Source: Atractiella rhizophila (Eukaryota). From it: a stretch of DNA of 24,506 bases. The stretch is from NCBI GenBank assembly GCA_021432655.1, contig MU271187.1, forward strand, positions 124,001 to 148,506. Reading direction: 5' to 3'. The notes under the pieces are model-generated. The model searched no databases. It saw only the letters and a list, made by a program, of their open reading frames with translations, and was not told where the DNA came from. The stretch's first letter is position 1, and the number at the start of each line of letters is the position of its first letter. Positions 2,716 through 24,506 of the stretch are shown piece by piece. A program made the position numbers and the translations under genes.

Positions 2716-4324
2716 ATGGAAGTCCTCCCTCGTTATCACGGCATGACCTGGGGCTGGCGCTCAAGTTTCTACCTTCGTCTCGGCGGCGCCACTCCAAACG
2801 GATACCCAGGCTTTGAAGACGATGATGATGGTGACACAGATGATTCTTCGAACGATGGAAGCGATGGTGACGGTGACGGCGGCGGAAATGACGGCGGTAA
2901 CGGTGGTGGTGGCGGAGATGGTGGGTATGACGATGACGGGAGTGCTGGCAGTTATCGCACAGCTCCTCAATCATGGACGGGAGACGACATTAGTGAAGGA
3001 AGGAGCAGCGCTTCCGAGACGCCTTCATGGCAAACTCCCCCTCAAACTCCTCCTCAAACTCCCCCTCGAACTTCTCCTCAAACTCCCCCTCGAACTCCTC
3101 CTCAAACTCCCCTCGAACTCCTCCTCAAACTCCCCCTCGAACTCCTCCTCAAACTCCCCCTCAAACTCCCCTCAAACTCCTCCTCAAACTCCTCCTCAAA
3201 GCCCCCCTCCAGCTCAGAATCCAGGTCGTAACCCAGCTCCTTCTCCCACCTCAAATCAAAATCAAGCAGCACCGTCGCCTCGAGATCCTGCCCCTGCAGG
3301 TCGTATCAGAACTCCTCGTCCAGCTGCAAATCACAGTCAAGCAAGGCCAAGTCGAGCAGACCCACCACTCCAGGATGCAACATCTTCAAACCATGGCACA
3401 ACACATCCTCGAGGCTCGAATCAGATTCCGGCAACTTCAACTTCTGGTAGAGCCCCTATTCTTCGTCCAGCTACAAGTCAGAATCGAGCAGAACCAGAGC
3501 CACGGGATCCGGCCCCAGCAGCTCAGAATATAGCTCCTCGTCCGGCTGCGAATCAAAATCAGAGAAGACCAACCCCACAGGATCCAATACCGCCGGTGGT
3601 ACCTCGTCCAGCTTCGAATCAGAATCAGTCAGGAACACAGCCGCGAAATCGCGCACAAGCCCGCCGCCCAACATCGAATCAAGCTGCGAATCAAACAGAA
3701 CCACATCATGCCCAAAGCAGCGCACCCCGCGCAGCAAGCCTGCGTCCCACTGTGCACTTCGCACCTCTCCCTCTCACGGATCTTGTTCTTCACACTGACG
3801 ATGCTCGAGATCCACATCGTGCCAACCGCATGCTACTCCGTTCGCTTCTGAATGAAGCACTCCTGCGGAACCCAATGAATATCCAACTGAGTTTCGTGAG
3901 AGGCAACGAGAATCAAGGACGTGTACGTCGTACAATGACGATTACGTGGGCGGTACAAATTCGATGGATCATGCAAGGTCTCTACTTGGAAGCTTTCGCG
4001 AACATCCCTGTTATGCGACCTGGCCATAACCGAGAAGATATACTCCAGTCCATCATCGATGCGGACAATCTAGAGGAGGCGGACAGAATTTGGCACGCGC
4101 ACCATCCGGCATATGGATTATATAACACACCTGCAGCGTTGCAGAGCTGGGACGACAGGATGCGGGCCTTACTTACTCTAAGGTTGGATGACGATGTGCA
4201 GTTGCAGGCTGCCCTTCTTGCGACAGGAGACAGAAACATCGTCGTCCTCCCGCATTCATGGGAGAACAGCAATACGGGGGCAATTCTGATGGATCTTAGA
4301 AGGCACTTAAGCATGAGAAGCTAA
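2716..4324 (+). CDS. Low-complexity protein with C-terminal NADAR (YbiA)-like domain; two apparent 1-bp frameshifts in the minisatellite
   Basis: ATG 2716 (MEVLPRY... then D/G-rich). The QTPP repeat passes through all three frames because of two 11-nt units. Restoring 2 bases gives one 536-aa ORF ending at 4324. The C-terminus WDDRMRALL...LQAALLATGDRNIV...W...NTGAILMDLRRHL resembles the NADAR pattern LLATGDRxLVE...WG...NxLGxxLMxLR. Confidence 0.65.
3031..3208 (+). repeat. Coding minisatellite, 15 units of 12 bp (C[A/G]AACTCC[C/T]CCT = Q/R-T-P-P)
   Basis: Units parsed directly. Units 3103-3113 and 3162-3172 are 11 nt (C4 instead of C5). Confidence 0.95.
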
Positions 4325-4963
4325 CTGAACCCTTGTGAGTCCATCCAGCGTTGTCCTGCCTCTGGAATAACCATGTTCATTCAGCCGAGATCTCGTCTTT
4401 CCGACAATACCACAATGAATTTTCAAACGACATGGATGTCTTGATGCTTGACGACTATCTTGCAAAACGAGCAAATCGACTGGATCGATATGGTACCTTA
4501 TTTCTGTATTATCTGTATTTTTATGTTTGAAATTAAATGTGTTGTTGTTCTTATCATAACGATTCCATGGATATTTTCCTCTCATTCCTCGGAAGGAAGC
4601 AAACCCGACCCTATGATGAAGCGTGCACGGCAAAGTCACCTTGACCTCAGAACCATCTCCTTGCATCTTCCCAATGTGAACAGGAGTATGAGCTAAAACC
4701 CTGATCGTAACCCTAAACTTGAAGGCGTGACACTAACTGAGCAGTCAATTGTCATTCCCTATAGCAGAACCTCAGCAGAACCAAAGATCCACATTCACTC
4801 GCCAAACTCCTCGATAACGGTGGCCATCTGGAGATTCCGTTGATCTTTGTGGCCGTCAAAACTACAGGACCATAAGATTCCAGTGGCCAACTCACTCCTC
4901 CACCTCATCTAGACGATTTTCGACTTCTCTTCAGGCTCTCATTGAACAACGCCGGTGGAAAGA

Positions 4964-6125
4964 ATGGAAGCGACAAACGAGGAAACGCACGTCCACTCGG
5001 TCTACTCGCACATCGCTTCACATTTCTCTCAAACACGATACAAAGTTCACCTTCCCTATCCCTTTCTCGTTCCTTTCTGGCTTGCTAGCCTGTACTGACC
5101 CTTACCTTGTGATTGAAAGCCATGGCCAAATGTCGACAAGTTCCTCACGTCCCTCCCATCAAACTCCATCGTCCTGGACGCTGGATGCGGGAATGGCAAA
5201 TACCTTGGAACGCGATCAGTACTCTCCAGAACTCTCACCCCATCATCCTCGAAAGGCAAGATCGATGGAGACGTTTCTAGCTTAGGTTTCATATTCAGCA
5301 TCGGCGTGGATCGCTCCGAGGAACTGCTGGGCATCGCGAGGGGAAGGGGACATGAAGTCTTCAGAACTGATGTTGGCGGAGGGATGGAGAACTGTGTTAG
5401 AGAGGGAGTTTTCGTACGTTGCTTTCTCCGCTCCGTTGCCTTTAGGCAGGAGGGATGGATGGACTGACTCAAGGAGAAGGCAGGACGCGGCTATCAGTAT
5501 AGCAACAATTCACCACTTCACGTCCCACCATCGTAGGTGTGAGGCTGTTAAGGTTCGCTCACCATCTTCCTCTCACCCAGTGAACATGACCCAGCTCAGA
5601 AATATGTGCTATGGACAGGCGCTTATGCTAGCTATAAAGCCTTCGAGCGGCTCAAGGAAGGGAGGGAGAGCTCTCATACACGTCTGGGCGCTGGAGCAGG
5701 ATGAAGCGTTCTTTAAGAAACGCGGGATGGAGCCGGCTTCTCTCTCCATCTCCTCTTCCCATTCCGCAACAGATTCTGATACGGGACCATCATGTAGCCA
5801 TCACGGCACCTCCCTTTCAATAGGTCTCCACGAAGGCGAAGAAGGGATTAAGGATCGGACGCAAGACTGGCTCGTCCCCTGGACCACGAAAGAGGGAGGA
5901 GAGGAGCGCATGTACAAGCGATTTTATCACCTCTTTAAGCAAGGAGAGCTCGAGGGAATGGTCGAAAACGCTGCCAAGGAGCTTGGGTGGGCTTTTACTG
6001 GAAAGGATTCAGAGGATGATGATGGAGGTGCCGGAGGGGAAGGATTCCGGGTGAGGATTGTGGATGGTGGGTGGGAGAAGGATAATTGGTTCGTTGAGCT
6101 CTTGATCTTCAGATATTCTTCTTAG
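4964..6125 (+). CDS. TRM9: tRNA wobble-uridine (mcm5U34) methyltransferase Trm9, copy 1, 316 aa
   Basis: Exons 4964-5044, 5120-5413, 5484-5552, 5619-6125 with GT-AG introns. Motifs: HVHSVYSHIASHFSQTRYKPWP, SAM motif LDAGCGNGKYL, DAAISIATIHH, VWALEQ, QDWLVPW, YKRFYHLF, DNW. Confidence 0.92.
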
Positions 6126-6264
6126 TCTTCTTGCTACTGGTGAGGAGTGGACGAATGTGGATTACAATATAACTAGTGTACAATACTTTTCCCAACCACG
6201 CTCTCTCCTTAGCATCATGTAATGACAAAGAGACCGAGGCGGCCACAAGAGAAGCTGAAGATGC

Positions 6265-6426
6265 TCAGACGGCTCGTTCCCCCTCCTGCTCCAACTGTGC
6301 CCTCCGTCTCTCTCTCAGCTTCAACCTCTCCTGTTTCGCCTCCTCTAACGCCACCTTCAGCTCCTCCGTATTTTGGGGGAGCGGTTTCATCTGTCCATGT
6401 CCAGAGCATGCATGTCAGCACACAAA
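6265..6426 (-). pseudogene. Orphan last exon (plus part of intron) of PET100 left by the duplication
   Basis: Matches 8576-8737. The upstream exons are absent because the duplication junction lies in intron 2. Confidence 0.8.
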
Positions 6427-6649
6427 CCATCCGGCATATGGATTATATATCACACCTGCAGCGTTGCAGAGCTGGGACGACAGGATGCGAGCCTTACTTA
6501 CTCTAAGGTTGAATGACGATGTGCAGTTGCAGGCTGCCCTTCTTGCGACAGGAGACAGAAACATCGTCGTCCTCCCGCATTCATGGGAGAACAGCAATAC
6601 GGGGGCAATTCTGATGGATCTTAGAAGGCACTTAAGCATGAGAAGCTAA
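6426..6649 (+). pseudogene. 5'-truncated copy of the NADAR-like C-terminus
   Basis: Matches 4101-4324 with N>I, D>N and one synonymous change. Confidence 0.75.
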
Positions 6650-7274
6650 CTGAACCCTTGTGAGTCCATCCAGCGTTGTCCTGCCTCTGGAATAACCATG
6701 TTCATTCAGCCGAGATCTCGTCTTTCCGACAATACCACAATGAATTTTCAAACGACATGGGATGTCTTGATGCTTGACGACTATCTTGCAAAACGAGCAA
6801 ATCGACTAGATCGATATGATACCTTATTTCTGTATTATTTGTATTTTTATGTTTGAAATTAAATGTGTTGTTGTTCTTATCATAACGATTCCCTGGATAT
6901 TTTCCTCTCATTCCTCGGAAGGAAGCAACCCGACCCTATGATGAAGCGTGCACGGCAAAGTCACCTTGACCTCAGAACCATCCGCTTGCATCTTCCCAAT
7001 GTGAACAGGAGAGTGAGCTAAAACCCTGATATCTCGTAACCCTAAACTTGAAGGCGTGGCACTAACTGAGCAGTCAATTGTTATCCCCTATAGCAGAACC
7101 AAAGACCCACATTCATTCGCCAAACTCCTCGATAACGGTGGCCATCTGGAGATTCCGTTGATCTTTGTGGCCGTCAAAACTACAGGCCCATAAGATTCTA
7201 GTGGCCAACTCACCTCATCTAGACGATTTTTCGACTTCTCTTCAGGCTCTCATTGAACAACGCCGGCGGAAAGA

Positions 7275-8436
7275 ATGGAAGCGACAAACGAGGAAACGCA
7301 CGTCCACTCGGTCTACTCGCACATCGCTTCACATTTCTCTCAAACACGATACAAAGTTCGCCTTCCCTATCTCTTTGTCGTTCCTTTCTGGCTTGCTAGC
7401 CTGTACTGACCCTTACCTTGTGATTGAAAGCCGTGGCCAAATGTCGACAAATTCCTCACGTCCCTCCCATCAAACTCCATCGTCCTGGACGCTGGATGTG
7501 GGAATGGCAAATACCTTGGAACGCGATCAGTACTCTCCAGAACTCTCACCCCGTCATCCTCGAAAGGCAAGATCGATGGAGACGTTTCTAGCTTAGGTTT
7601 CATATTCAGCATCGGCGTGGATCGCTCCGAGGAACTGCTGGGCATCGCGAGGGGAAGGGGACATGAAGTCTTCAGAACTGATGTTGGCGGAGGGATGGAG
7701 AACTGTGTTAGAGAGGGAGTTTTCGTACGTTGCTTTCTCCGCTCCGTTGCCTTTAGGCAGGAGGGATGGATGGACTGACTCAAGGAGAAGGCAGGACGCG
7801 GCTATCAGTATAGCAACAATTCACCACTTCACGTCCCACCATCGTAGGTGTGAGGCTGTTAAGGTTCGCTCACCATCTTCCTCTCACCCAGTGAACATGA
7901 CCCAGCTCAGAAATATGTGCTATGGACAGGCGCTTATGCTAGCTATAAAGCCTTCGAGCGGCTCAAGGAAGGGAGGGAGAGCTCTCATACACGTCTGGGC
8001 GCTGGAGCAGGATGAAGCGTTCTTTAAGAAACGCGGGATGGAGCCGGCTTCTCTCTCCATCTCCTCTTCCCATTCCGCAACAGATTCTGATACGGGACCA
8101 TCATGTAGCCATCACGGCACCTCCCTTTCAATAGGTCTCCACGAAGGCGAAGAAGGGATTAAGGATCGGACGCAAGACTGGCTCGTCCCCTGGACCACGA
8201 AAGAGGGAGGAGAGGAGCGCATGTACAAGCGATTTTATCACCTCTTTAAGCAAGGAGAGCTCGAGGGAATGGTCGAAAACGCTGCCAAGGAGCTTGGGTG
8301 GGCTTTTACTGGAAAGGATTCAGAGGATGATGATGGAGGTGCCGGAGGGGAAGGATTCCGGGTGAGGATTGTGGATGGTGGGTGGGAGAAGGATAATTGG
8401 TTCGTTGAGCTCTTGATCTTCAGATATTCTTCTTAG
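7275..8436 (+). CDS. TRM9: Trm9 tRNA methyltransferase, copy 2
   Basis: Same exon structure shifted by +2311. The four coding differences seen (CCA/CCG, AAG/AAA, TGC/TGT, CCA/CCG) are all synonymous. Confidence 0.92.
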
Positions 8437-8575
8437 TCTTCTTGCTACTGGTGAGGAGTGGACGAATGTGGATTACAATATAACTAGTGTACAATACTTT
8501 TCCCAACCACGCTCTCTCCTTAGCATCATGTAATGACAAAGAGACCGAGGCGGCCACAAGAGAAGCTGAAGATGC

Positions 8576-8983
8576 TCAGACGGCTCGTTCCCCCTCCTGC
8601 TCCAACTGTGCCCTCCGTCTCTCTCTCAGCTTCAACCTCTCCTGTTTCGCCTCCTCTAACGCCACCTTCAGCTCCTCCGTATTTTGGGGGAGCGGTTTCA
8701 TCTGTCCATGTCCAGAGCATGCATGTCAGCACACAAAATCCTGACTGCACCGCAAAACACTTGCCCTCTCCTTTAGGTCCGGCCTCGTGAACCGTGACAC
8801 CAGATGCTTCACATGGTTGTCGTACCAATCGGGATCACCGTAATGGGCGAAGATGAAGATGGGGAAGAAAAGATAAAGGGAGAACTTGAAGACTTCAAGC
8901 CTGGGACCTGTGATGTCAAATTTTTAAACACAAAGGAAGTCATTAGGGAGAGCAGAAGTACCGTTGCGACTGAGACGCGTCAT
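8576..8983 (-). CDS. PET100: Mitochondrial cytochrome c oxidase assembly factor Pet100-like, 96 aa
   Basis: Exons 8983-8962, 8907-8765, 8701-8576 give MTRLSRNGPRLEVFKFSLYLFFPIFIFAHYGDPDWYDNHVKHL...LPQNTEELKVALEEAKQERLKLRERRR. This has the GPxLEVFKF motif, a TM helix and a charged helix. Intron 2 is GC-AG. Confidence 0.82.
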
Positions 8984-9594
8984 CTCACTGTAAGAGTGCG
9001 TCACTGCAGTATTGGCAGTAAGCTAGTAAAGTGGGGCAATGTTAGGATTGTGTGGTTGGAACGCGCGAATCGAATCGAAGGTCGAAACCTTCTTTAAACG
9101 AATGGACTGACCACATTGAATGGACCTTCATCGACCTTCAGTCCTTCAATTTACAAAAGTATTTTTAGTGGACGTTGACATTCTGAGGCAGGTCATTCGT
9201 GAGCCTATGCTTTTGCTGTCGCTTTTATCATGTCGCTGAGCCAATGACTTTCCATTGCGAAACCTGCAACTTGGATCACGCGGCTGAGACATTTTCAAAT
9301 GAAAAAGACCTGCGGAACGCGTCTTTTGACGACACATCAAAACTAATACACTTTGACATTATTTCATAGCGTGGTTTCATTTAGCTTTCGGGGATAGTCC
9401 ATTTTGTTTTGCAAAGAGGTTAACGATGCAAGCAGCAGCAAAGTTGCATCATATATTTGGAACCATAGCAGGAAAGTCCGTGAGAGACATTATGTTGAAA
9501 AGTTCGGCATTTGGAAAACCTTGACGATGGTCTCTCGCCAAGGAATCCAACTAACACATCTCTCGATCTCTTACAGTTGTAGGGACCCTTCAAA

Positions 9595-12658: not shown

Positions 12659-12702
12659 GTTTCCGGATACGTTGATGTTCCAGACTTCGGACGGGCTTGG
12701 GC

Positions 12703-12729
12703 TTTATATTTAGACATATATCACGTGAT
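12703..12729 (-). promoter_or_regulatory. Putative TATA box (TATAAA, 12708-12703) and palindromic bHLH E-box ATCACGTGAT (12720-12729)
   Basis: The motifs lie 45-70 nt upstream of the ATG at 12658, in a divergent intergenic region. Confidence 0.4.
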
Positions 12730-13031
12730 GGTGTTATGTGTTCGACGCTCTTGACAAGCTGGACAAGCTCAACGATTGATGTATCAGGATGTATTCACCA
12801 GCCATCAATTGACAGCTTCATAGCTACTACAACTGTGCACCTTGCATAACATGCAGTTACGTCACCCAAGTTCCCACCTTCCCGCTTTCTCACCATCCCG
12901 TCTCGCCAAATCAGAATAGCGGCAGCCAGTCTCACTCACTTAATTCAGAGTATATACCACCCTTCTCCCTAAACCAACCTCCGCTTTGAAGAGATATCGT
13001 TGGCCGTTGAAGTAGATTCTGATAGAGAAAG

Positions 13032-14092: not shown

Positions 14093-15244
14093 TCTCGTGA
14101 TGGGTGGAGTGGAGGTGAAGAGCTCAAATTTGAGATATGAGGCGAAACTGGAGGATGACTGATATAGGTTTACGAGGTGTTGTCTTCCTAGACCGATAAA
14201 TGGATGTTTCGTTTTTCATTGTGATTTGACCATGCTCCTATTATTTCCAGCGCATCGGGCTGAGGAGACGTCCCGTTGTATTGAATACTTCAGTCATGAG
14301 ATAATAATAAAAGCAGATCGTGAGAGTTGCTGAACATTCCAAGTTAATTCGATCACTGAAATGTTATACGGCAATCCTCCCTCAAAGCAGTCAAATCTGA
14401 ACCAACACCAATCTGAGGCGGTTAGGATCAGAGTACATCCCACTAGTGGCGAGACGTTGCAGCCATGGCAAATATTTCCACCTTTTTTCAGACAGATCGA
14501 GTCCTGAGAGGGATTCTAACAACTCGTCCACTTGTAAAAGAAGAATCAGGCGCAGACATGAGGAATAAACGGTGACGGAGTTTGGCAATGGAAAGAGGAA
14601 TCTTATGTGGCTCTTGAAATTGGGTGCTCGTAGATAGGGGAAGATATTCTTGCTGCAGGATCACGGTGCTTGTCATGGAATGACGACGCAAAATACAGCG
14701 ACGTGGCATTCCTTCGGGCGTGCAAGATATTAGCATAAGAAAGCGATCTCAACAGTCTCGTCGTCTAAGAAGAGGCAATCATCCTCAGCGATCGACTAGA
14801 TCATTGCATTTGTGTACAGACACATCATTCCTTGCGGTCAGCGCAGAATCAAATAACGGCAATGTACCACAGTTTCTACGCTCTCTATATAGTGTGTACC
14901 ATAGTTCACGAGAAATCTATGAGTTTTGACTTCTGTAATGTCATACAATGAAGAGGAGAAATGGTCGTCTCACACCGTGATGCCTTTGCAATAACAGAAC
15001 TCACTGTGTTAAGGAGTCTCTATTTCTAAATGCTGGTTCTCACCACCGTCAGCGTATGGATAAAGAATATGCAAAATGTGCAAGTGCGGAGAGAAAAACC
15101 GTCCGGATGTTGGTCGCGAAGTAGATCGGAACCAAAAGCTGAACGCGAACTGGAATCTCAACGAGTTCTCTCTTCCTTTCTTTTTTCTCAAAGTAGCACC
15201 TTCCAGCAAAAGCATTTACCAGCTGCAATCAGCGCCCACCCAAC

Positions 15245-15465
15245 ATGCTGACCATCCGCCCTCCCCTCCTCCGCTCTCGGCTGACCACCTGTCTACTCCT
15301 CCTGCTTGCGCTCGCGCTGGTCGTGCTACACATTACATTCCCTTTCTCTCCCTCTTACCAAGCCACGTTGGAAGCTCACGGAGTTGTTGGAGCGGTAGGG
15401 AGGGCGAGCGATAAAGGCAGGAAGCTGTTGGGAGACGGGTGGAGGAAGGCGATGGAATATGGTGG
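15245..15465 (+). CDS. 5' fragment of a signal-anchor (type II membrane-like) protein, truncated by the gap
   Basis: ATG in CAACATG context, basic N-terminus, then hydrophobic CLLLLLALALVVLHITF. Open up to the Ns. Confidence 0.55.
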
Positions 15466-15490
15466 NNNNNNNNNNNNNNNNNNNNNNNNN
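15466..15490. other. Assembly gap (25 N)
   Basis: 25 consecutive N. Confidence 1.
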
Positions 15491-15854
15491 AGCACAAATT
15501 ATACTTTAATGTGATCAACATGCACGCCGCTAACCCTGCGCTGCAGAACCCAGACGATGTGGTAAAAAGGCGAGGATACCTCAGCAGAGGATGACGGATG
15601 GCCCAATCCATTCGAGGTTCCCAGCAGGAAACCAGAGTCCGACTGCCAGTCGAGTATCCTTCCGACCGCTAGCTTGAGCTGCCGCTCAACTCAGCATGAG
15701 TACTAGACGGGTCGAAATGGATACCGCATTCAGGAGTAACAACTACCACGACCACGTAACCATTGTTTCTCCAACCTGGGAATGCGTCTGAGTTTTTTCT
15801 CCAGAGCTAGCTTAGGGAGAAAAAAGGACGACGAGCGTTTGCAGGTTGCAGCAG

Positions 15855-15949
15855 CACCCTAAGACTGTCGTGGTAAGAGTGATTATCCATCCGTCGACGA
15901 GCGTTTGCAGGTTGCAGCAGCAACCCTATGACTGTCGTTAAAAAGCGAC
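15855..15949. repeat. Mirror copy of retrotransposon terminal repeat A (A2); may extend left to 15491
   Basis: Exact 95-nt reverse (not complement) of 24412-24506. The match is limited only by the window end. It contains an internal ~42-bp near-tandem repeat (GCTGTCAGwATCCCA...GACGACGTTGGACGTTTGCGAGCAGC). Confidence 0.9.
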
Positions 15950-16265
15950 GGGTCGGGAGGAGAGGGAAACCCAAAAGAAGAGCCGATCTAATGCTGGTTA
16001 TTACAGAAAGCCAAAGAGAACGGACGCCAAGTATATTGTCAACACTAAGACAAAGGACAGAGAAGCTCGACGAAAGCCAAGGTAAAAATCGAGTGAAAGA
16101 ATGTCGTCAAGGAGAAGTAGTCAAAAGACAAACCTCGCACTCTTCCAAGACAGACCACACAATTGTCGCGAAGATAAAGTAGCACGAGAGGCCTAATAAA
16201 CTTACGAGACCACTTTTAAAGTAGTGAGAGCAGAGCCAAGAGCCGGAGAACATAAAGAGAACCAC

Positions 16266-16387
16266 ATCGAGAGTCAAGCAGGTGAGGCATTAGTGTTAGC
16301 AGGAGCAGGTTGAGAGTCAAGCAGGTGAGGCATTAGTGTTAGCAGGAGCAGGTTGCGATAAGCAAGCGAGTTTTCGAGCGTGCAGGT
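16266..16387. repeat. Mirror copy of retrotransposon repeat B (B2) with a 43-bp internal tandem duplication
   Basis: Reverse of 20008-20086 plus a duplicated unit (16269-16311 / 16312-16354). It abuts host-homologous sequence at 16388. Confidence 0.9.
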
Positions 16388-19300
16388 TCTTCCAAAGCCG
16401 AAAGCTCGAAGCGTGCAAGGTTGGTGTGTTAGGATTGTAATGGGGAGAAATGAGCGTATGACGGTTGTGACGTCACTGCGTGAGAATGTCACTCTACTGC
16501 GCAGAGTCAGCGTTGCCATGAAGACGAGAGGGATTACTGAAGGAAGCACAAATTTTTAAACTGTAGTGTCCAGGGTCCGAACTTCAGAAGTTCAAGAGGG
16601 AAATAGAAAAGAAGGGGTAGAAATAGAAGCGGGTAATGCCACTAGGGCTAACCATGCTGTTGGTACACTTCGTAGACCACAGTGCCAAGTGCTCCGGCCT
16701 GGATTTCCTCTCCCGTTCACAAAACGCCACGTCAGTCCTAACACACACGACTGTACGTACGAGACCTGTACCTGTCTACTTTGGCGAGGGGGTTTTATGC
16801 CTCCTCGACTTCCACCGCAATCTCCTCCGCTTTGTCCTCTCCAACTTCGACTCTCTCTCTGCCTCCCGTGTCAACCTCGTCCTCCCCCTTGCTCGGCAGA
16901 CTCGTAGAAGTCGAAGAGAACACCGGCGGAGCCAGAGAAACAGTAATGTACTACGATTCCTCTCTCGCACCAACCCTTTTCATAACATGTGATCAATATA
17001 ACATTAGGTGTAAGCAGGTGAGGAGTGGTCATCGTTCTTCTGATTCTTCTTATAGACTTCTAGTTCTCGAGTTGCTTGGTTAATAGGAAGAGGGTGGGTG
17101 GTAGGTGTTAGGAGTGGGCCTTAGGAAGGGGAGGCCGTGGAGGTAGTAGTAGGAGACTTAGGAAAGGTCATTTTCGGGTGGGTTCGAGGAACCGTCGCAA
17201 AAGCTGGTAAGGGAGCTCGAGAGGAACGAATTTCTCCACTATTTTAGCGAACATGTACGCGAGGAGAGGAGGGAGAAAGCACCAGGTCCCCTGCTCGGTC
17301 AGAACGCAGGCTAGGAATTAGGGAAGAAGCGGAAGCACCTGTGGATAACTTTCCCTCCACGGCACTACCGATGTACTACCAGGGCATAGTCTTAGACAAC
17401 GCCTTACCCTTCTCCTCTACCTCTCTCTTCGGCCGAGGTAGGGCGCAAAGAATTTCTTGCGAAGTAGGACGAGGTCGCGGGTCTGCACATACTCTCGAGA
17501 GGGAGGGAAGGAACTCGGCGAGCTTCCGAAATATCGATCGTATTCGCGGACAGGTATCGTGTATAAAGACTCGACCCAGTACAAGTGACCCACTCTCCTT
17601 CTACCACTCGCTTGGAATTGTCGGAGTGTGGATGCTACCACCCTGCACTTCACCACTTAACAACGATATGACTATCGGCGCAGGACGGAAGAGGAACTCA
17701 GTCAGGTAGGTAGGGAGGACGGATTTCCGTTGCCTCGCCTCTTTCGTTGCATGCTTTTGAGGGAGAGATTGTGTCAAGAGGTAGGGAGGCGGTTGTAGTC
17801 AAGACTTCTGAAGTACAGGGGAAGGGGAGCGCTACGGGTCGTCAAGGAGCCTCGCTAGGTGCGGCTACGACTTATACTTTGGATTCGATCTTTGCAGAGG
17901 TAGCTAGAACGGAAAGCTCCTACTACCCCACTTTCAAGACCTCTCATGACTAGCGCAAGGTTCCATAAACGGTAAGGGCGTAGGTCGCAGGTCCTGCTAC
18001 CTCAAACTACCCTCCCTGCACTCCTTGAACAGCTGTAAACCGGTACCGAAAGTTAGTGTTCCATTCCCAGTCATGTCCGATCGTTCGGTCTTTCCTTGCT
18101 CTTTCCCTATCCCTTCGGCTTGAAACATAGCACAAACTCTCTTTACACTTCGCTACACGCTCATCTGGCTCACCTGCACGCAAAGGAGCAAACAGCGAAG
18201 GTAAGAAAGGTGGCCGCAACAAGTTACTCTCGGACTTCTCTTCAGCTTTTAGCAGATCTACTCCACCTCCTCACTCAACCGGTGACCTTAGAATACCAGG
18301 ACATCAAAACTGCCGGTGTTTCTAGTTGCCTTAGAGGTCTACCGGTGGCAATAGCTCCTCAAACCGCTCACTTACACCTAGAAACCAAGACGGCTCCAAG
18401 ACGATGATATCCCTTACTGTTAACTGACGAGTCAATCACAGTGCGGAAGTTCAAATCCCAATGCTAGTCCCAAAATCGAGTATGAGGACAAGTGTAACCC
18501 TTCTACGTTCCTCTACCAAGACTCCAGTTCCACTGAAACGGCACGTGCGAAGTAGTATCCCAGCCCAAACGAAGGAAGGCTCCTTACTCTCCTTTTATAG
18601 GTACCTTAGCAATACTATTCTTGTTGTTGTGTAAATTAAAGTTTGTATTTTTATGTCTATTATGTCTTTATTCCATGGTATAGCTAGGTCAGCTAAACGA
18701 GCAAAACGTTCTATCAGCAGTTCGTAGTTCTGTAGGTACAGCAAACTTTTAAGTAACACCATAACAGCCTTTCTGCTCTAGAGCCGACTTACTTGTACCA
18801 ATAAGGTCTCCGTCCTGTTGCGACCTACCTGAGTGTTCCCAAGTCAATCGAAGAGTAGGAATTCACGGAAGATTCTAGGTAGTCTTAACGGGGGCATAAC
18901 GACAAGAGGGTACTTACGCCCTCCTGCTGCTACAAAGACAGAGGACAGCGTTCTTCCCGTCGGACGTTGACGTGTAGCAGTAAGTTGGAATCTCATTCAT
19001 TCCGGGCGTAGGACAGCAGGGTCGAGACGTTGCGACGTCCACACTATATATTAGGTATACGGCCTACCACGCGCACGGTTTAAGACAGGCGGAGGAGATC
19101 TAACAGACGTAGCTACTACCTGACCTCATATTAGAAGAGCCAATACCGGTCCTGCGTATTGTCCCTACAAGCGCTTTCGAAGGTTCATCTCTGGAACGTA
19201 CTAGGTAGCTTAAACATGGCGGGTGCATTAGCAGTAACATGCTGCATGTGCAGGAACTAAGAGCAACGGAGAGTGCTTTGAGTCGACCTATAAGTACCCA

Positions 19301-20007
19301 AGGCGTCCTCACGAAGTAAGTCTTCGCTTGCCTCATCGTACGCCAACCGTGCTACACCTAGAGCTCGTAGCAGTCACACTTCTTGTTCTAGGCACTCTCC
19401 CCTCTCCACGCTTCACGTGTCACCCTGCGTCCGAACGACGCGCCCCACGCGACGAAACCCGTGCTACACCAAGACAAACTAAGCGTCGAACTAAGCTACA
19501 ACCCGCCGCCCGAACACGCGCTAAAGCGCCGACACAAGGACTGACTAAGACTAAGCTTCGACCTGCTCCATGGTGGCCGCCATAACCTAGGACACCCCAA
19601 CCAGAAGAGACTAAAACTAAGCGTCGGCCTGCTCCTCGATATAAGACTCGACGACCCCGGCTAGGGCACCGAGACCAAGACGAGCTAAGACTGAACATCG
19701 ACCTGCTTCTTATCCCCGAGATGGTCTTCAACTTCAACGGCCTTAGACTAAGCTCGGAGCTCCTACACAACACGGTACCAAACTTCCACAACGTAGGACC
19801 TCACCACCCAGACGAGCTGAACCGGAACGAACTGACACTAAACGTCGACCTGCTCCTCAAGACTATGCTGGACGTCCCCGTCCTAGAGCTCCCTGCCACG
19901 ACGAACTAAAACTAAACTCCACCCTCTTCCTCGACCCAATGCTGGACCTAAGACTCGACCTCCCCCCGAACTCCCCCTGAAAAACTCCTCCTCAAACTCC
20001 TCCTCAA

Positions 20008-20086
20008 TGGACGTGCGAGCTTTTGAGCGAACGAATAGCGTTGGACGAGGACGATTGTGATTACGGAGTGGACGAACTGAGAGCTA
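20008..20086 (-). repeat. Split direct repeat B1 (79 bp)
   Basis: Lies 60 nt downstream of the YR stop. The second copy is in the mirror block. Confidence 0.8.
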
Positions 20087-20146
20087 GGAAGGTAGTGAAA
20101 GCAGTTGAGGGGTGGGTTGGAGGTGCATAAGAAAGATGGTCCACTT

Positions 20147-21151
20147 CTAGAGGCGCTTGTCGAAAATAGAGCGTGAGCCGTGGATGGAGACATGGATAAG
20201 GATGGGATGATTCCGAATATAAATTTGGAAAGCTTCTGAACTCCATCTTCCGATCTTTTGTATGGTAGAGTCCGGAATGCCATTTGCAGCAAGGTGCGTG
20301 GCACCTCCCGAACGTAAGGAGTGCCCCGCGACATCACTTGAGAAGTGCATTCGCAGTCGGCGAATAAACCAGGAGCGCGTCGGGACGGAACCGTCCTCTC
20401 GAAGGAAAAGGTCGGGATGATAAGGGTGTGCCAAATCTCGTACTTCGAGGTAATGCTTCAAGATAGTAACCGGGTCAATCTTGTCGCACTCTCTCTTCTG
20501 AAGTAGGCATAGGTTCCCCCTGAACATTCTGTCGCCCTTGTGAGCTGGCAGCATATAAGTTACCATTCTCTCCGTCTCTTTGACCGATGTCCTCTTGATT
20601 CTCTTTCTAAAATCCTTCTTGATCTTCTCATCCGGATCCACTAATTCTCCAGCCCGATGTAGGTTATGCCAACCAATCGACACAATGCATTTAAATAGGA
20701 TGTCGTCGTAGGTGTTGGAGGAAAGAGAGTCAAAGAGGGACAGCAGGTCGGATTCCATCAAGGGACGTTTCCTGTTAGCTGGTGATTGGAAACGTTTGAA
20801 AGTGCCTGCAAGTGTCATTTTCACAAGCCGGGATCGCCTGACGGTGTGCCAATCTGGGAAGTAGGGTTCGATGAAGGAGGCAATACCGGAGAGATAGGAC
20901 TTGATGGTTTGTGGTTTGACGTAATGGGACATGAAAACGATGTAAAACGAGAGGGTGTCGCTGGAAGGGGTGAGTGGGAAGTGATGGAGTTGGCAGAACT
21001 GAATGTATGAGCGCGCAGCGGAGGTGTAAGATTCCTTTGTTGCTGGATCATAAGAGAGAGCCAGGGTTGAGGATCGTTCTTGCAGCAACCGTTCCCTGCT
21101 CCAAGCCTTTCGGTTGGGTTGTTTCCCACCCGAAAGGTTCAACAGGTCCAT
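20147..21151 (-). CDS. Tyrosine recombinase of the retrotransposon, 334 aa
   Basis: Catalytic set present: R (HRAGEL), K (HKGD), HxxR (GHSLRSGGAT), W (GRWSS), Y (IYIR). N-terminal core-binding region T..SY.SA..SYIQFC...TIKSYLSGI. Confidence 0.95.
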   Translation of the reverse strand: MDLLNLSGGKQPNRKAWSRERLLQERSSTLALSYDPATKESYTSAARSYIQFCQLHHFPLTPSSDTLSFYIVFMSHYVKPQTIKSYLSGIASFIEPYFPDWHTVRRSRLVKMTLAGTFKRFQSPANRKRPLMESDLLSLFDSLSSNTYDDILFKCIVSIGWHNLHRAGELVDPDEKIKKDFRKRIKRTSVKETERMVTYMLPAHKGDRMFRGNLCLLQKRECDKIDPVTILKHYLEVRDLAHPYHPDLFLREDGSVPTRSWFIRRLRMHFSSDVAGHSLRSGGATHLAANGIPDSTIQKIGRWSSEAFQIYIRNHPILIHVSIHGSRSIFDKRL

Positions 21152-21153
21152 TG

Positions 21154-24100
21154 TTACTCCTCCTCCCCCCTCAGCTCCTCGGCGGGGGGTTCGAAATAGT
21201 TGATTGTGATAGTAGGGTGGTACGTTCGAACAACTTCTTCGCGATTTCGTGAAAGAGCGTCTGCAATGTAATTTTGTTCACCCGGAACGTGTAGAACCCT
21301 GAGGTCGACCTCTCGGTGTTCCGCTAAGAGGAGAACCACTGTGCGAAACAACTTTGCGAGAGAGAACGGTGGTGAATGAGAAGAGAATAGGTCTACCGAA
21401 TTCATTGAGTCCGTATAAAGAACAATTCGACGGTAACCCGCTGCTATGCCATAGCGTAAGGCATGCAGGACAGAGGCCGACTCTGCCACGAAGATGTCGA
21501 CAGGTTCGGGCAATTGAAATTGACCAATGAAGCCCAGGTTGAGCGAGGGGAACCAGAATCCAATTCCCTTTGGACAAGCGTCGCAGTAGGCAACCAGATC
21601 TGCATCCTTTAGTGGCCAATCCTTGTCCTCAATCCATACGATGCCTTCCGATGCTTCAACGTAGTCTGCAGCCCACTCCAGATCTCTCTTCACCGATTTA
21701 TTGAGGTAAACTGAGGCGGCCCGATGGGTTTTGCCAGCAGTTTTTTGATATGACGATTGCAACGCAAAACGAGCGAGCGGGAAGACGTTAAGGATCCAGT
21801 TGAACCATCCCTGCATCCTCCACCACTCCAGAAGTGGCCTTTTTCTTCCAGGAACTCGCACAAACTCTCGTAGGGCTGCCACGAACTCCTCCTTCTTCTG
21901 AACCGTCAGGGTGAGGAGAAGGTTAGGGGTGTCGACATCAAAACCAATGATTTCGAGTTGTCTCCCATGTAACTGCTTCTTCCAATCGTAAGGGATCCCG
22001 AGACGTTCCCAGAGGGCCAGAAGTTGGGCTTGACGAAGGGGAAGGCGGTAGCCTCGGAAGGTAGTCATCGATTGAACGTGTTGGACCGACCATACATCGT
22101 CCATCAAATGTTGAACCGTTGGGATTTTTAGCACTCGGTTGGCAATCCAGCATACCATGGAGAAAAAGGAACACCATAAGTAGGGGCTACCCGAGCTTCC
22201 GAAAACTGCAAACCAGTCCACATAGTAGAGGTCATCGATGCGGAGGATTTGGAGAAGTTGCCACAGCGGGTGCATGGGCAGGAGACGAAAGGCGGAGGAG
22301 ACGTCAGACTTCCATAACATTAAGTTATCACCTCCCCAGATTCCAGCATAATATCTGATCCAAGGGATGAAATCTTGCATGGAGTCATAGCGCACCTTCA
22401 CCTTTGCCTTGTCGATAAGAGAGTTGAGTGAGTTGTCCCCAAAAGACTGATCTGTAATTATGCGAAAACGATCCGAGTCCTTCTTTGGGATCAATCCGAG
22501 GGGACTGGTCACCATGCCAGGGAGTAGGTTTTCGAAAGGAGGGGACCACCGTTCAGCTTTCACCTCCTCATCTCTCATTTCCCTTAAGGCTTCTCTTCTC
22601 ATTTCGCAACTTCCATGATTTGGCTGCTCATTCCACTGTGAGGGCTTTGTAGTTGCATGGGGCCAGAATCCTTCGCGAAGCCCAGTCAAGACCGACTCGA
22701 CAAAGGGTTGGTTGGGGTGAGAGCGAAGTTGCGAGGCGAAATAATCTACGTTTATAGGCGTCCAGACTTTAAAGAGAGAGGGATACGAGTTAATAGTAGA
22801 CCAAGCTGTCTTGTCATCGAGGAAAATCGGTGGAGGGCGTGGAAGCGGAACGGCTGACTCTGAAGATTCTGAGGAGGGATTCGCCAGACACTCGTCACCA
22901 TTCCAAAGGAAATTCCTAAGATAACGGGGACGAGGAGGGAGTCCTTCCCTACTTCTCCTTGATGACTTTGATCTTGGGACAGCTTGAATCTCCCGATTTA
23001 TGTCCCTTAGCCCCACAGACGGAACATTCATGTTTCCTTCTACACTTCCCATCTTCCAGTCCACATTTTCCTTCATTCCAATTCCTACAGACCTCGTCGA
23101 GCCGCTTGTGAGGTCGATTGGAATTGCTTGAACTACGCTTGCCTGTAGTAGGAGGAGAAGAAGAAGAAGAGGCAGTCGTCGATGTATTCTTGACTCCAGC
23201 AACGATATAGCGAGTATATACACCGTGGAAATGAGGGTGATTGAAATCGCTGATGGTGAGTGCAGGGGTCTGTGCAAGTTTGATTCTGAAGCCAACATCG
23301 TAGGCGAGAACCTGATAATGGTACTCCTTCGGGAGATCGGTGAAGAGGCCAATGATGAACTTGAAATATTCCTGAAGTCCGTCGGCAAGCATTGGAAAGA
23401 CCGTGACAACGCTCTTCGCATATAACGTCCAAGTTGTAATGCAGGCACCGGAGTCCTCCACCTTTTCCTCTGCCATCTTCCCCTCGATGCTAAGCTCGTG
23501 GGACCCGAGCGTGGCCAGCCTTCGCCCCTCGGGAGAGAATCCATGCAAGTAGGCATGCAGCTGAGGGAAGGGAATGTATTCGCCAAGGAGGAGAGAATCG
23601 AGGTGTACTGGCTTGAGGGGAGGGCACACGGCGGAAGATTGAAGGTCGAGTCTAGCAGACTTAACGTCCTTCCTATGGTTCGCCGTGAGCTTGCTGACCT
23701 CCAAAGCCAGGGCAGTAGGATTCGGTCCAAAGGGATTAGAACCTCCCCCATCCTTTCTCCAAGAGAAGAGGGCTCTGTTTGGTTTCCTTCGAGTCCCCTC
23801 CTCATCATCACTGCTCTCAATCTCCTCTCGCCCTCGTTTCGTAGCCTGTGCAAGAGTGTGGAGGAGATCCTGGACGGTCGATGAGGGAGGAACAGTATCA
23901 GGAGCTCCTGCAACACCGCTCGGTCCAGCCCTGGACGTAGATGTAGCGGCGCCCAAGAGGGTACTAAGTATCTGCTGTGAAGCATCTCCAGTACCCTCTC
24001 CTGTTCCATCTCCAACGTTTCCAGCCTCCCGTCTGGCGTCGAACTGATCCAATCCATCCAAGTAAGCCCTTCTAGCTCCCTCATCAGGGATGAGCCCCTG

Positions 24101-24246
24101 CAGCCTTTCCTCGATAGCGGTACGGTCGCTGCCGTCGCCTCTGCCGTAGTTGGACACCAAACCCAAAGCGTCGTAAACAGCACTAAGCTGAGCAGAACGA
24201 GCTTCCACCTGGCCCGAATTCGAGACAGGTGTGGCAGAGGTCTCAT
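21154..24246 (-). CDS. pol: Reverse transcriptase-RNase H (pol); frame open for 1030 aa, conserved part from ~22940
   Basis: RT motifs SPLGLIPKK..RFRIITDQS, KSDVSSAFR, FGSSGSP, LMDD, IIGF. RNase H motifs YCDAC, AES, YTDS, HVPGEQNYIADALSR. The true start is uncertain. Confidence 0.93.
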   Translation of the reverse strand: MRPLPHLSRIRARWKLVLLSLVLFTTLWVWCPTTAEATAATVPLSRKGCRGSSLMRELEGLTWMDWISSTPDGRLETLEMEQERVLEMLHSRYLVPSWAPLHLRPGLDRAVLQELLILFLPHRPSRISSTLLHRLRNEGERRLRAVMMRRGLEGNQTEPSSLGERMGEVLIPLDRILLPWLWRSASSRRTIGRTLSLLDSTFNLPPCALPSSQYTSILSSLANTFPSLSCMPTCMDSLPRGEGWPRSGPTSLASRGRWQRKRWRTPVPALQLGRYMRRALSRSFQCLPTDFRNISSSSLASSPISRRSTIIRFSPTMLASESNLHRPLHSPSAISITLISTVYILAISLLESRIHRRLPLLLLLLLLQASVVQAIPIDLTSGSTRSVGIGMKENVDWKMGSVEGNMNVPSVGLRDINREIQAVPRSKSSRRSREGLPPRPRYLRNFLWNGDECLANPSSESSESAVPLPRPPPIFLDDKTAWSTINSYPSLFKVWTPINVDYFASQLRSHPNQPFVESVLTGLREGFWPHATTKPSQWNEQPNHGSCEMRREALREMRDEEVKAERWSPPFENLLPGMVTSPLGLIPKKDSDRFRIITDQSFGDNSLNSLIDKAKVKVRYDSMQDFIPWIRYYAGIWGGDNLMLWKSDVSSAFRLLPMHPLWQLLQILRIDDLYYVDWFAVFGSSGSPYLWCSFFSMVCWIANRVLKIPTVQHLMDDVWSVQHVQSMTTFRGYRLPLRQAQLLALWERLGIPYDWKKQLHGRQLEIIGFDVDTPNLLLTLTVQKKEEFVAALREFVRVPGRKRPLLEWWRMQGWFNWILNVFPLARFALQSSYQKTAGKTHRAASVYLNKSVKRDLEWAADYVEASEGIVWIEDKDWPLKDADLVAYCDACPKGIGFWFPSLNLGFIGQFQLPEPVDIFVAESASVLHALRYGIAAGYRRIVLYTDSMNSVDLFSSHSPPFSLAKLFRTVVLLLAEHREVDLRVLHVPGEQNYIADALSRNREEVVRTYHPTITINYFEPPAEELRGEEE

Positions 24247-24256
24247 CTTCCAACAT
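22949..24256 (-). CDS. gag: Gag-like ORF1, 435 aa, with C-terminal Cys/His zinc finger
   Basis: First ORF of the element. CRNWNEGKC...C...HECSVC...H cluster and W..Y...V...FP.....L..Y...I...F......VLAYD..FR core, as seen in DIRS-type ORF1. Confidence 0.85.
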   Translation of the reverse strand: MLEDETSATPVSNSGQVEARSAQLSAVYDALGLVSNYGRGDGSDRTAIEERLQGLIPDEGARRAYLDGLDQFDARREAGNVGDGTGEGTGDASQQILSTLLGAATSTSRAGPSGVAGAPDTVPPSSTVQDLLHTLAQATKRGREEIESSDDEEGTRRKPNRALFSWRKDGGGSNPFGPNPTALALEVSKLTANHRKDVKSARLDLQSSAVCPPLKPVHLDSLLLGEYIPFPQLHAYLHGFSPEGRRLATLGSHELSIEGKMAEEKVEDSGACITTWTLYAKSVVTVFPMLADGLQEYFKFIIGLFTDLPKEYHYQVLAYDVGFRIKLAQTPALTISDFNHPHFHGVYTRYIVAGVKNTSTTASSSSSPPTTGKRSSSNSNRPHKRLDEVCRNWNEGKCGLEDGKCRRKHECSVCGAKGHKSGDSSCPKIKVIKEK

Positions 24257-24411
24257 GCACGGTCAACGGTGGAGCGGGAAGATTATAGGCGAAATGCGGA
24301 GGGTTAGGAAGAGGGCTAGGTTGTCGAGTGGTGAGAGATTAACGTTGTTGAGGGAGAGGAGTCGGCAATCAGGCAATGAAACAATGATTCGATAGATGGA
24401 CGTAGTTCTAT

Positions 24412-24506
24412 CAGCGAAAAATTGCTGTCAGTATCCCAACGACGACGTTGGACGTTTGCGAGCAGCTGCCTACCTATTAGTGAGAATGGTGCTGTCAGAA
24501 TCCCAC
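24412..24506 (-). repeat. Terminal repeat A1 (partial, runs off window)
   Basis: Upstream of gag, with an exact mirror copy at 15855-15949. Confidence 0.8.

What the first reader, a model, noticed from the sequence alone, without database searches (positions are those of the whole stretch)
15491..20007. 4.5-kb mirror-image block: reversed but not complemented
Seen: for example 19919 CCACCCTCTTCCTCGACCCAATGCTGGACC is the letter-for-letter reverse of CCAGGTCGTAACCCAGCTCCTTCTCCCACC at 3221. The match continues collinearly for ~3.6 kb, plus two transposon repeats. No known polymerase or recombinase makes kilobase mirror copies. The block starts exactly at a 25-N gap, ends exactly at a repeat boundary, and has scattered 1-bp indels in coding sequence (at least five in the NADAR part), as expected for a low-coverage long-read consensus. 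Inference: a gap-filling or scaffolding orientation bug (I recall 25-N gaps being typical of PBJelly output; verify). Any gene models here are false. If raw reads supported it, it would be extraordinary.
Basis: partly seen in the sequence, partly recalled or inferred. Interest (0 to 1): 0.85.

Follow-up and report, generated by a model that had tools for sequence, protein, structure and literature searches.

The report
Backwards-written assembly block beside a gap
A 4.5-kb stretch next to an assembly gap is real fungal DNA whose letters were pasted in reverse order without being complemented, so it is a data fault and not biology, and any genes predicted on it are false.

Summary
Read backwards without complementing, 16387-20007 equals 3164-6426 plus 8738-9094 (99.2% and 95.8% identity). 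It skips one copy of a 2.3-kb tandem unit. It then runs into a short relative of the retroelement that starts at 20008.

The longest exact mirror match is 598 nt, against 13-19 nt for control segments.

Contigs built from three public runs support the reversed reading:
- 6 of 13 listed contig overhangs match only the reversed block, at the collinear places.
- 12 of 19 listed contig substitutions on the forward copy carry the block's own letters.
- A Pet100 reading frame appears in the block only when it is reversed.
- A k-mer direction test puts all 5 block chunks on the "reversed" side, and all 20 normal chunks on the other.

The block abuts the only N run (25 N) and ends at the retroelement terminus.

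Verdict: an orientation bug in gap filling or patching. The program is not identified. The leftmost 300 bases (15491-15790) could not be shown to be reversed. Pfam did not confirm "NADAR".

Earlier notes of this scan (e1-7574415, e1-7574419) report the same fault in other pieces of this genome. I could not test that.

The parts
15466..15490 (.). 25-N assembly gap, the only N run in the window. The block begins at its right edge.
   Evidence: Real contigs that end at 15465 go on with letters found in no reading of the window. So the gap is genuine and the block is not what follows 15465.
15491..15790 (.). Leftmost part of the pasted block. Its orientation is undetermined. By continuity it is probably the same reversed piece, namely the tail of the short retroelement relative T'.
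   Evidence: There is no mirror or ordinary match in the window. The k-mer direction score is +3.5 to +6.0 nats, within the range of normal sequence, with 10-16 of 49 controls lower.
15791..16386 (.). Mirror-written T', a short relative of the retroelement at 20008. It shares both of that element's end regions but not its 4.3-kb coding interior.
   Evidence: Mirror matches to 24412-24506 (95/95) and to 20008-20086 (76/76 and 98%), with a 43-nt unit doubled. Contig overhangs match the reversed reading at 16265->16236 (30/30), 16265->16244 (22/22), 15828->15818 (11/11), 15979->15950 and 15822->15793 (3 mismatches each). The k-mer score is negative: 0-1 of 49 controls are lower.
16387..16742 (.). 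Mirror-written copy of 8738-9094. It includes the Pet100 reading frame.
   Evidence: 343/358 = 95.81%. The Pet100 frame is 64/65 identical, and only in the reversed/complement reading. The best as-written score is 31 against 352. A contig overhang behind 9069 equals the reversed reading 16408->16387, 22/22.
16743..19077 (.). Mirror-written single copy of the 2.3-kb unit that stands twice in tandem at 4093-6426 and 6418-8737. It is closest to the first copy.
   Evidence: The block equals copy 1 at 61 differing columns, copy 2 at 22 (mostly flank), and is private at 11. Contigs carry the block-private letters at 6637, 8137 and 8736.
19078..20007 (.). Mirror-written copy of 3164-4092. This is part of the 525-codon frame 2747-4324, including the end of its 12-nt tandem repeat.
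   Evidence: Five 1-bp indels break the frame: the reversed block's longest frames are 228 and 176 codons, against 386 for the forward stretch.
3164..9094 (+). Correctly written forward counterpart of the block, with the 2.3-kb unit duplicated in tandem.
   Evidence: From 6427 on it is covered by contigs of all three runs. Run X3 shows GT..AG splice joints on it. Pet100 sits at 8726-8923(-), E 1.8e-14. All 6 of its chunks favour the as-written direction.
20008..24506 (-). Correctly written retroelement T with a tyrosine recombinase. Its terminus at 20008 is the right border of the block.
   Evidence: RVT_3 (RNase H) E 5.1e-6 and Phage_integrase E 1e-6, both above the Pfam cut-offs. RVT_1 E 0.039, below its cut-off. 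Contigs of 4388 nt cover 20054-24441 with 0 differences in X1 and X2.

Best explanation
The block is not biological sequence as written. It is a real piece of this fungus's DNA. It is an alternative version (other haplotype or second copy) of 3164-9094 that has one 2.3-kb unit instead of two. At the point matching 9094/9095 it runs into T', a short, non-coding relative of the neighbouring tyrosine-recombinase retroelement.

A finishing step pasted this piece between a gap and a contig that began at the retroelement terminus (20008). It put the letters in reverse order but did not complement them. The piece was probably drawn to this place because T' shares its first 76 bases with the start of that contig. 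If so, it is misplaced as well as mis-written.

Shown here:
- the mirror identity;
- that the reversed reading exists in read-derived contigs;
- that coding and k-mer signals appear only on reversal;
- the seam positions.

Inferred, not shown:
- that a long-read gap filler of the PBJelly type did it;
- that the shared repeat end recruited the piece;
- that the five 1-bp indels are consensus errors.
For: Mirror identity. 99.17% over 3269 columns, 95.81% over 358, plus 76/76 and 95/95 on the retroelement ends. The longest exact mirror run is 598 nt, against 13-19 nt in three control segments.

Read-derived contigs of runs X1, X2 (one sample) and X3 (another sample). Of the 13 overhang strings listed, 6 match the window only in the reversed reading, inside the block and at the collinear positions. 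Four of the six are exact (30/30, 22/22, 22/22, 11/11). None matches the block as written, reverse-complemented or complemented.

Variants. On the forward copy, 12 of 19 listed contig substitutions and 3 of 8 listed indel rows equal the reversed block's letters. These include three sites where the block differs from both window copies.

Coding signal. Pet100 is 64/65 identical in the reversed reading only. Of the block's 30 as-written frames of 60 codons or more, none reaches a Pfam cut-off, and the best E-value is 0.092.

k-mer direction test. 14 of 14 normal chunks and 6 of 6 forward-copy chunks favour 'as written'. All 5 of 5 block chunks favour 'reversed'.

Seams. The block starts at the only N run and ends at the retroelement terminus.

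Literature. The PBJelly paper describes splicing flank-extension consensus beside a reduced gap, and defines a gap as 25 or more N (PMC3504050, passages read).
Against: Only contigs (Logan), not raw reads, could be laid, and no long reads were seen.

Seven of the 13 listed overhangs do not match the block in any reading. Seven of 19 substitution rows and 5 of 8 indel rows disagree with the block. All but one of these disagreeing rows lie in 8903-8972, where the contig differs from both the window and the block, so a third version exists.

The overhangs before 20008 and behind 15465 match neither orientation of the block ends. The intended placement therefore cannot be reconstructed.

For 15491-15790 the composition test does not indicate reversal.

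The 1-bp indels cluster in 3277-4039. The 2.3-kb unit has none, which is not what uniform consensus noise would give.

No paper was found that documents such a bug in any gap filler. The program used for this assembly is unknown to me.
Confidence: 0.96

Rival explanations
1. The mirror copy is real DNA: some unknown process made a kilobase copy with reversed base order on the same strand.
For: Only the bare fact that the string stands in a public record.
Against: No polymerase or recombinase is known to produce same-strand reversal (established knowledge). Contig overhangs from three runs continue into the reversed reading, not the written one. The written reading has no coding signal and has the wrong k-mer direction. 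The block sits exactly between an N gap and a contig or repeat border.
Confidence: 0.003
2. The block is right, and the forward region 3164-9094 is the mis-written one.
For: Mirror identity is symmetric, so the alignment alone cannot say which side is wrong.
Against: Contigs of all three runs lie on 6427-9094 as written, with GT..AG splice joints in X3. Pet100 is read from the forward region. All 6 of 6 forward chunks have the normal k-mer direction.
Confidence: 0.001
3. The fault is the same (reverse without complement), but it arose in a hand edit or a custom patching or submission script, not in an automatic long-read gap filler such as PBJelly.
For: No published report of such a bug in PBJelly or another gap filler was found. 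The pasted piece includes the part (T') that should have overlapped the flank, which a working extension routine would have trimmed.
Against: A 25-N gap is the smallest gap PBJelly recognises, and flank extension beside a remaining gap is its described behaviour. Earlier notes report several such blocks beside gaps in this genome (e1-7574415, e1-7574419; not tested here). That points to an automatic step.
Confidence: 0.3
4. The block is a noisy long-read copy of the very same molecule as 3164-9094. On this view its differences are all sequencing error and it is not another haplotype or copy.
For: Five 1-bp indels break a 525-codon frame within 760 nt.
Against: Contigs from short-read-type runs carry 12 of the 19 listed substitutions and the 8-nt insertion and two 1-nt deletions of the block. 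The block has one unit where the window has two, and a T' junction where the window continues differently. An independent contig overhang supports that junction, 22/22. The window's own 9094/9095 junction contig has about half the depth of its neighbours: 159 vs 314-326 in X1, and 96 vs 223-241 in X2. The tool warns that depth is no copy number.
Confidence: 0.05

Closest known systems
Reverse-without-complement string-handling error (a familiar programming slip; named from my own knowledge, no paper found)
   Same: The written string equals a real sequence only after plain reversal. It has no coding signal and the wrong k-mer direction as written. It sits at a software seam: an N gap on one side and a contig start on the other.
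   Different: I know of no documented case in a public assembly from the searches run. Here the pasted piece is also another haplotype or copy, and is probably misplaced.
PBJelly flank extension / 'overfilled' gaps (English et al. 2012, PMC3504050; passages read)
   Same: Read consensus is spliced into a contig end next to a gap that stays open. 25 N is the smallest run the program treats as a gap. Extensions that do not meet are described as 'overfilled'.
   Different: The paper describes no orientation fault. Use of the program on this assembly is not established. Part of the block's differences are true variants, not long-read noise.
Natural mirror repeats (H-DNA / triplex-forming tracts; from my own knowledge; one search gave only a listing of papers that mention them)
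   Same: Same-strand mirror symmetry of the letters. The window has a small natural example, the C/T-rich 12-nt tandem array at 3031-3215, which matches itself on reversal.
   Different: Natural mirror repeats are short, of low complexity (homopurine/homopyrimidine), and have adjacent arms. Here the sequence is 3.6 kb or more, complex and gene-bearing, and the arms lie 10 kb apart.
Haplotype duplication in assemblies of heterozygous genomes (from my own knowledge)
   Same: The block is a second version of a region already present in the scaffold. The forward region itself holds two 97.65%-identical units in tandem where the block and contig depth suggest one.
   Different: Ordinary haplotype duplicates are written in a readable orientation.

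Membership tests
Reverse-without-complement data artefact | Plain reversal of the string gives a long, collinear, near-identical match to real sequence, far beyond chance | tested here: met
   99.17% over 3269 columns. Longest exact run 598 nt, against 13-19 nt in controls.
Reverse-without-complement data artefact | The reversed reading, not the written one, is found in sequencing data of the organism | tested here: met
   6 of 13 listed contig overhangs match only the reversed block at collinear places, and 0 match the written, reverse-complement or complement readings. 12 of 19 listed contig substitutions equal the block's letters. Contigs only; raw reads were not available.
Reverse-without-complement data artefact | Coding and compositional signals are absent as written and return on reversal | tested here: met
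   Pet100 frame 64/65 only after reversal. 0 of 30 as-written frames reach a Pfam cut-off. 5 of 5 block chunks have a reversed k-mer direction, against 0 of 20 normal chunks. Exception: 15491-15790 is inconclusive.
Reverse-without-complement data artefact | Borders coincide with assembly seams | tested here: met
   The left border is the end of the only N run. The right border is the retroelement terminus, where real contigs start.
PBJelly flank-extension product | Inserted consensus abuts a remaining gap of at least 25 N | tested here: met
   The gap is exactly 25 N. The program's gap definition and extension behaviour are in PMC3504050.
PBJelly flank-extension product | Long-read error profile (scattered small indels) in the inserted piece | tested here: inconclusive
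   There are five 1-bp indels in 3277-4039 but none in the 2.3-kb unit. Many other differences are true variants.
PBJelly flank-extension product | The assembly was in fact processed with that program | not testable with these tools
   No assembly record or whole genome is held. I did not try to trace the record.
Natural mirror repeat (H-DNA type) | Short, low-complexity purine/pyrimidine tract with adjacent mirror arms | tested here: not met
   The arms are 3.6 kb of complex, gene-bearing sequence lying about 10 kb apart. Only the 12-nt array at 3031-3215 is of that kind.
Tyrosine-recombinase (DIRS-type) retroelement, for the neighbour at 20008-24506 | Reverse transcriptase and RNase H followed by a tyrosine recombinase on one strand | tested here: met
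   RVT_3 at 26.9 bits (cut-off 21.6) and Phage_integrase at 29.1 bits (cut-off 27.1). RVT_1 reaches only 14.1 bits, below its cut-off of 29.6.
Tyrosine-recombinase (DIRS-type) retroelement, for the neighbour at 20008-24506 | Characteristic terminal repeat architecture (inverted or split direct repeats) | tested here: inconclusive
   The element runs off the window. Only the shared end regions 'a' (20008-20083) and 'b' (24412-24506) are seen, through T'.

The most novel reading that the evidence does not exclude
The block as written exists in the organism's DNA: a true kilobase-scale same-strand mirror copy made by an unknown process. Strictly, only contigs and not raw reads were laid, and contigs show presence rather than absence.
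Probability: 0.003. Interest if true: 0.95.

Novelty: not a real feature. Interest (0 to 1): 0.1.

Why it matters
It has no biological importance, but it matters for data quality.
- Any gene model on 15491-20007 is false.
- A real Pet100 copy and a broken copy of the 2747-4324 frame are hidden in unreadable form.
- The scaffold suggests a neighbourhood (block next to the retroelement) for which no read support was seen.

Once reversed, the block carries useful information. It records an alternative version of 3164-9094 with a single 2.3-kb unit and an insertion of a short retroelement relative at 9094/9095. It also hints that the tandem duplication in the main path may itself be two haplotypes stacked.

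Earlier notes of this scan report like blocks elsewhere in the same genome. A systematic step is therefore likely, and other assemblies made the same way may carry the same fault. A check of k-mer direction, or of 31-mer read support, beside every N run would find such blocks.

Tried and rejected
(1) Read cover of the block as written. Contigs of runs X1, X2 and X3 were laid on 6427-24506. All seven depth bins from 15472 to 19692 are 0 in all three runs. Every bin to the left has cover in X1 and X2, and every bin from 19693 on has cover in all three. I list it here and do not count it as evidence. The case rests on the positive matches.

(2) Whole-genome scan for other gap-adjacent mirror blocks. 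This was not possible, because no genome is held for this window.

(3) The NADAR label. I scanned 20 and 28 frames of 2603-9097 against Pfam at E up to 1 and the 525-codon frame against NCBIfam at E up to 10. None hit NADAR. The Atlas gave NADAR clusters at 0.76-0.77, under its 0.9 line, which is a lead only.

(4) Reconstructing the intended placement. The overhangs before 20008 (two contigs, agreement 0.62) and behind 15465 match no reading of the block ends. I cannot say whether the piece was meant to stand forward or reverse-complemented, or whether it belongs here at all.

(5) Orientation of 15491-15790. There is no homologue in the window. The 300-nt k-mer test gives +3.5 to +6.0 nats, inside the normal range. 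This remains undetermined.

(6) Literature on such artefacts. I searched the phrases 'reversed but not complemented' and four variants (24 papers, none about assemblies judging by title and abstract start), 'mirror repeats' + 'misassembly', and 'PBJelly' + 'reverse complement' + 'bug' (two papers, listing only). I found no report.

(7) Look-up of the T' part among earlier scan notes by sequence: nothing.

(8) Sequence search of the retroelement's 1030-residue protein against solved structures: no hit at E up to 0.01.
Full report
WHAT IS THERE

I blasted the reversed, uncomplemented window against the window. The results were:
- rev(16743-20007) = 3164-6424, 99.17% over 3269 columns (15 mismatches, 9 gap openings);
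- rev(16387-19077) = 6418-9094, 97.26% over 2700 columns;
- rev(16312-16387) = 20008-20083, 76/76;
- rev(16266-16315) = 20037-20086, 98%;
- rev(15855-15949) = 24412-24506, 95/95, running to the window's end;
- rev(15829-15871) = 24423-24466, 95.5%.

The only other mirror hits are a C/T-rich 12-nt tandem array (3031-3215) matching itself. That array is ordinary low complexity.

The two long hits overlap because the forward region holds a direct tandem duplication, 4093-6426 ~ 6418-8737, at 97.65%. The block holds only one unit, and it resembles copy 1. Read backwards, the block is therefore 3164-6426 joined to 8738-9094. The second part matches at 343/358 = 95.81%.

At exactly the point where the window goes on differently (9094/9095), the reversed block instead enters TGGACGTGCGAGC.... 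This is the same sequence that begins at 20008, with a 43-nt unit doubled.

MORE THAN CHANCE

The longest exact mirror match of three normal segments to the window is 13, 19 and 19 nt. For the block it is 598 nt. Of the reversed block's 31-mers, 3059 of 4487 occur elsewhere in the window. As written, 0 of 4487 do.

SURROUNDINGS

The window is eukaryotic. There is an F-box frame at 2-1789(-). Contigs of run X3 show GT..AG splice joints on several genes. Earlier scan notes call the organism a root-associated basidiomycete. I did not pursue its identity.

On the minus strand, 20008-24506 carries two frames:
- A 1030-codon frame with RNase H (RVT_3, above cut-off) and a weak reverse-transcriptase match (RVT_1, E 0.039, below cut-off).
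- A 334-codon tyrosine recombinase (Phage_integrase, above cut-off).

This is a DIRS-type retroelement, T, whose terminus is at 20008.

The reversed block's last roughly 900 nt (T') share T's first 76 nt and the region 24412-24506. They lack T's 4.3-kb coding interior. T' looks like a short non-coding relative.

The forward region carries:
- a Pet100 frame at 8726-8923(-), E 1.8e-14;
- a spliced gene in the 2.3-kb unit;
- a 525-codon proline-rich frame at 2747-4324.

DOES THE ORGANISM HOLD THE WRITTEN OR THE REVERSED READING?

A search with the normal stretch 9100-15465 found three public runs. X1 and X2 come from one sample and hold 0.80 and 0.78 of the sampled words. X3 comes from another sample and holds 0.35. 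Their contigs were laid on 6427-24506.

Positive evidence, overhangs. I tested the 13 listed overhang strings against the window in four readings: as written, reverse-complement, reversed and complement. Six match only the reversed reading, inside the block, at the places the collinear map predicts:
- behind 20086 -> 16265..16244 (22/22), and 16265..16236 (30/30, from X3);
- behind 24466 -> 15828..15818 (11/11);
- behind 9069 -> 16408..16387 (22/22);
- before 24412 -> 15979..15950 (3 mismatches);
- behind 24456 -> 15822..15793 (3 mismatches).

None matches the block in the other three readings. One further string matches ordinary sequence at 10512. The remaining six match nothing in the window.

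Positive evidence, variants. On the forward copy, 12 of the 19 listed contig substitutions in 6427-9094 are the reversed block's letters. They include 6637, 8137 and 8736, where the block differs from both window copies. Three of 8 listed indel rows also agree: a 1-nt deletion at 6759, an 8-nt insertion behind 7210, and a 1-nt deletion at 7227.

Rows against. Seven substitution rows and five indel rows disagree. All but one lie in 8903-8972, where the contig differs from both the window and the block. A third version therefore exists.

Read cover. No contig of any run lies on 15472-19692.

INDEPENDENT SIGNALS IN THE SEQUENCE

Coding. The Pet100 frame is found in the block at 64/65 identity in the reversed/complement reading only. 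The best as-written local score is 31, against 352. Of 30 as-written frames of 60 codons or more, none reaches a Pfam cut-off, and the best E-value is 0.092.

k-mer direction. I trained a strand-symmetric third-order Markov model on normal parts of the window:
- all 14 of 14 cross-validated normal 900-nt chunks favour 'as written' (+3.1 to +45.5 nats/kb);
- all 6 of 6 forward-copy chunks favour 'as written';
- all 5 of 5 block chunks favour 'reversed' (-7.6 to -37.7 nats/kb).

At 300-nt resolution, 15791-16090 and 16091-16386 are on the reversed side, with 0-1 of 49 controls lower. The chunk 15491-15790 is not: it scores +3.5 to +6.0 nats, with 10-16 of 49 controls lower. Its orientation is undetermined. 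By continuity it is probably the tail of the same piece.

WHAT THE PIECE IS

It is not just a noisy copy of 3164-9094.
- It has one unit where the window has two.
- It has a T' junction that an independent contig overhang supports.
- Many of its variants are seen in contigs.

The contig that carries the window's own 9094/9095 junction without any difference has about half the depth of its neighbours: 159 vs 314-326 in X1, and 96 vs 223-241 in X2. This fits a heterozygous insertion, that is, another haplotype. The tool warns that contig depth is no copy number.

The five 1-bp indels at 3277-4039 break the 525-codon frame. They may be long-read consensus errors at the far, thinly covered end of the piece. 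They cluster there, and the 2.3-kb unit has none, so uniform noise does not explain them. I could not lay reads on that part.

HOW IT MOST LIKELY AROSE (INFERENCE)

A contig began at the retroelement terminus, 20008. This is a typical break point for short-read assemblies. A finishing step extended it into the gap with read consensus that had been recruited by the 76-nt end shared by T and T'. That step wrote the sequence reversed but not complemented and left a minimal 25-N gap.

The PBJelly paper supports parts of this picture (PMC3504050, passages read):
- it defines a gap as 25 or more N;
- it describes splicing flank extensions into gaps that are only reduced;
- it describes 'overfilled' gaps.

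PMC6240028 gives 25 as the default minimum gap (passages read).

This fits but does not identify the program. No paper found reports such a bug (listings only for the papers not named above).

The overhangs before 20008 and behind 15465 match neither orientation of the block's ends. The piece is therefore probably misplaced as well as mis-written.

RIVALS

- A real mirror copy. This is contradicted by the overhangs, the coding signal, the k-mer direction and the seam positions. No enzyme is known to make same-strand reversal.
- The forward region is the wrong one. Contigs, splice joints, Pet100 and k-mer direction on it refute this.
- A hand edit or custom script instead of an automatic gap filler remains open.

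COMPARISON AND VERDICT

This is the signature of a reverse-without-complement string error at an assembly seam. It is not a natural mirror repeat, which is short, of low complexity and has adjacent arms.

Earlier notes of this scan (e1-7574415, e1-7574419) report like blocks beside gaps in other pieces of the same genome. I could not test that, because no genome is held.

Novelty: not a real feature. Interest is low for biology. The value lies in flagging false gene models, a likely systematic fault, and the hidden alternative haplotype.

Noticed in passing
window 4093-6426 and 6418-8737: A direct tandem duplication of a 2.3-kb gene-bearing unit, 97.65% identical. The last ~1180 nt of the two copies are identical, and all differences lie in the first ~1150 nt. 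The reversed block has only one unit. Contig depth over the unit (283-326 in X1) is like that of single-copy neighbours (about 314), not double (the tool warns that depth is no copy number). The duplication may be two haplotypes stacked in tandem by the assembly.
   Followed up: partly
window 20008-24506 (runs off the end), minus strand: A retroelement with an RNase H / weak reverse-transcriptase frame (21154-24246) followed by a tyrosine recombinase (20147-21151), i.e. DIRS-type. Its 4388-nt interior contig has 0 differences and about 0.4 of the neighbouring depth in X1 and X2. Its first ~80 nt have several-fold depth and at least three different continuations in contigs, so the family has several members.
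   Followed up: partly
window 15791-16386 read backwards; insertion point 9094/9095: A short relative (T') of that retroelement. It shares both end regions but has 316 nt in place of the coding interior. In the alternative version of the locus it is inserted after ...CTTCT at 9094. The window's uninterrupted junction contig has about half depth, which suggests heterozygosity.
   Followed up: partly
window 8726-8923, minus strand: A 65-codon frame with a clear Pet100 match (cytochrome c oxidase assembly factor family), E 1.8e-14, 54.2 bits.
   Followed up: no
window 2747-4324, plus strand: A 525-codon open frame with a 12-nt (CAAACTCCCCCT-type) tandem array at 3031-3209 and a long Pro/Gln/Asn-rich middle. 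It has no Pfam or NCBIfam family. Its only hint is a weak Atlas lead to NADAR clusters (0.77, under the 0.9 line). Whether it is a real gene is open.
   Followed up: partly
window 9672-11776 and elsewhere in 9100-15465: Contigs of X1 and X2 differ from the window at about 0.8% of positions in normal sequence (16 letters and 1 gap in 2104 nt), each with a single contig at full depth. This points to heterozygosity, or to a strain difference between the runs and the assembly.
   Followed up: no
window 7093-8658, 9627-10029, 10609-11572 (plus strand); 12403-12465 (minus strand): Contigs of run X3 skip 46-83-nt stretches bounded by GT..AG (CT..AC at 12403-12465). These are spliced transcripts that give intron positions for at least four genes.
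   Followed up: no
window 15465/15466: Contigs of X1 and X3 run past 15465 for 67-85 letters that occur in no reading of the window. So the true sequence of the gap is recoverable from public data.
   Followed up: no
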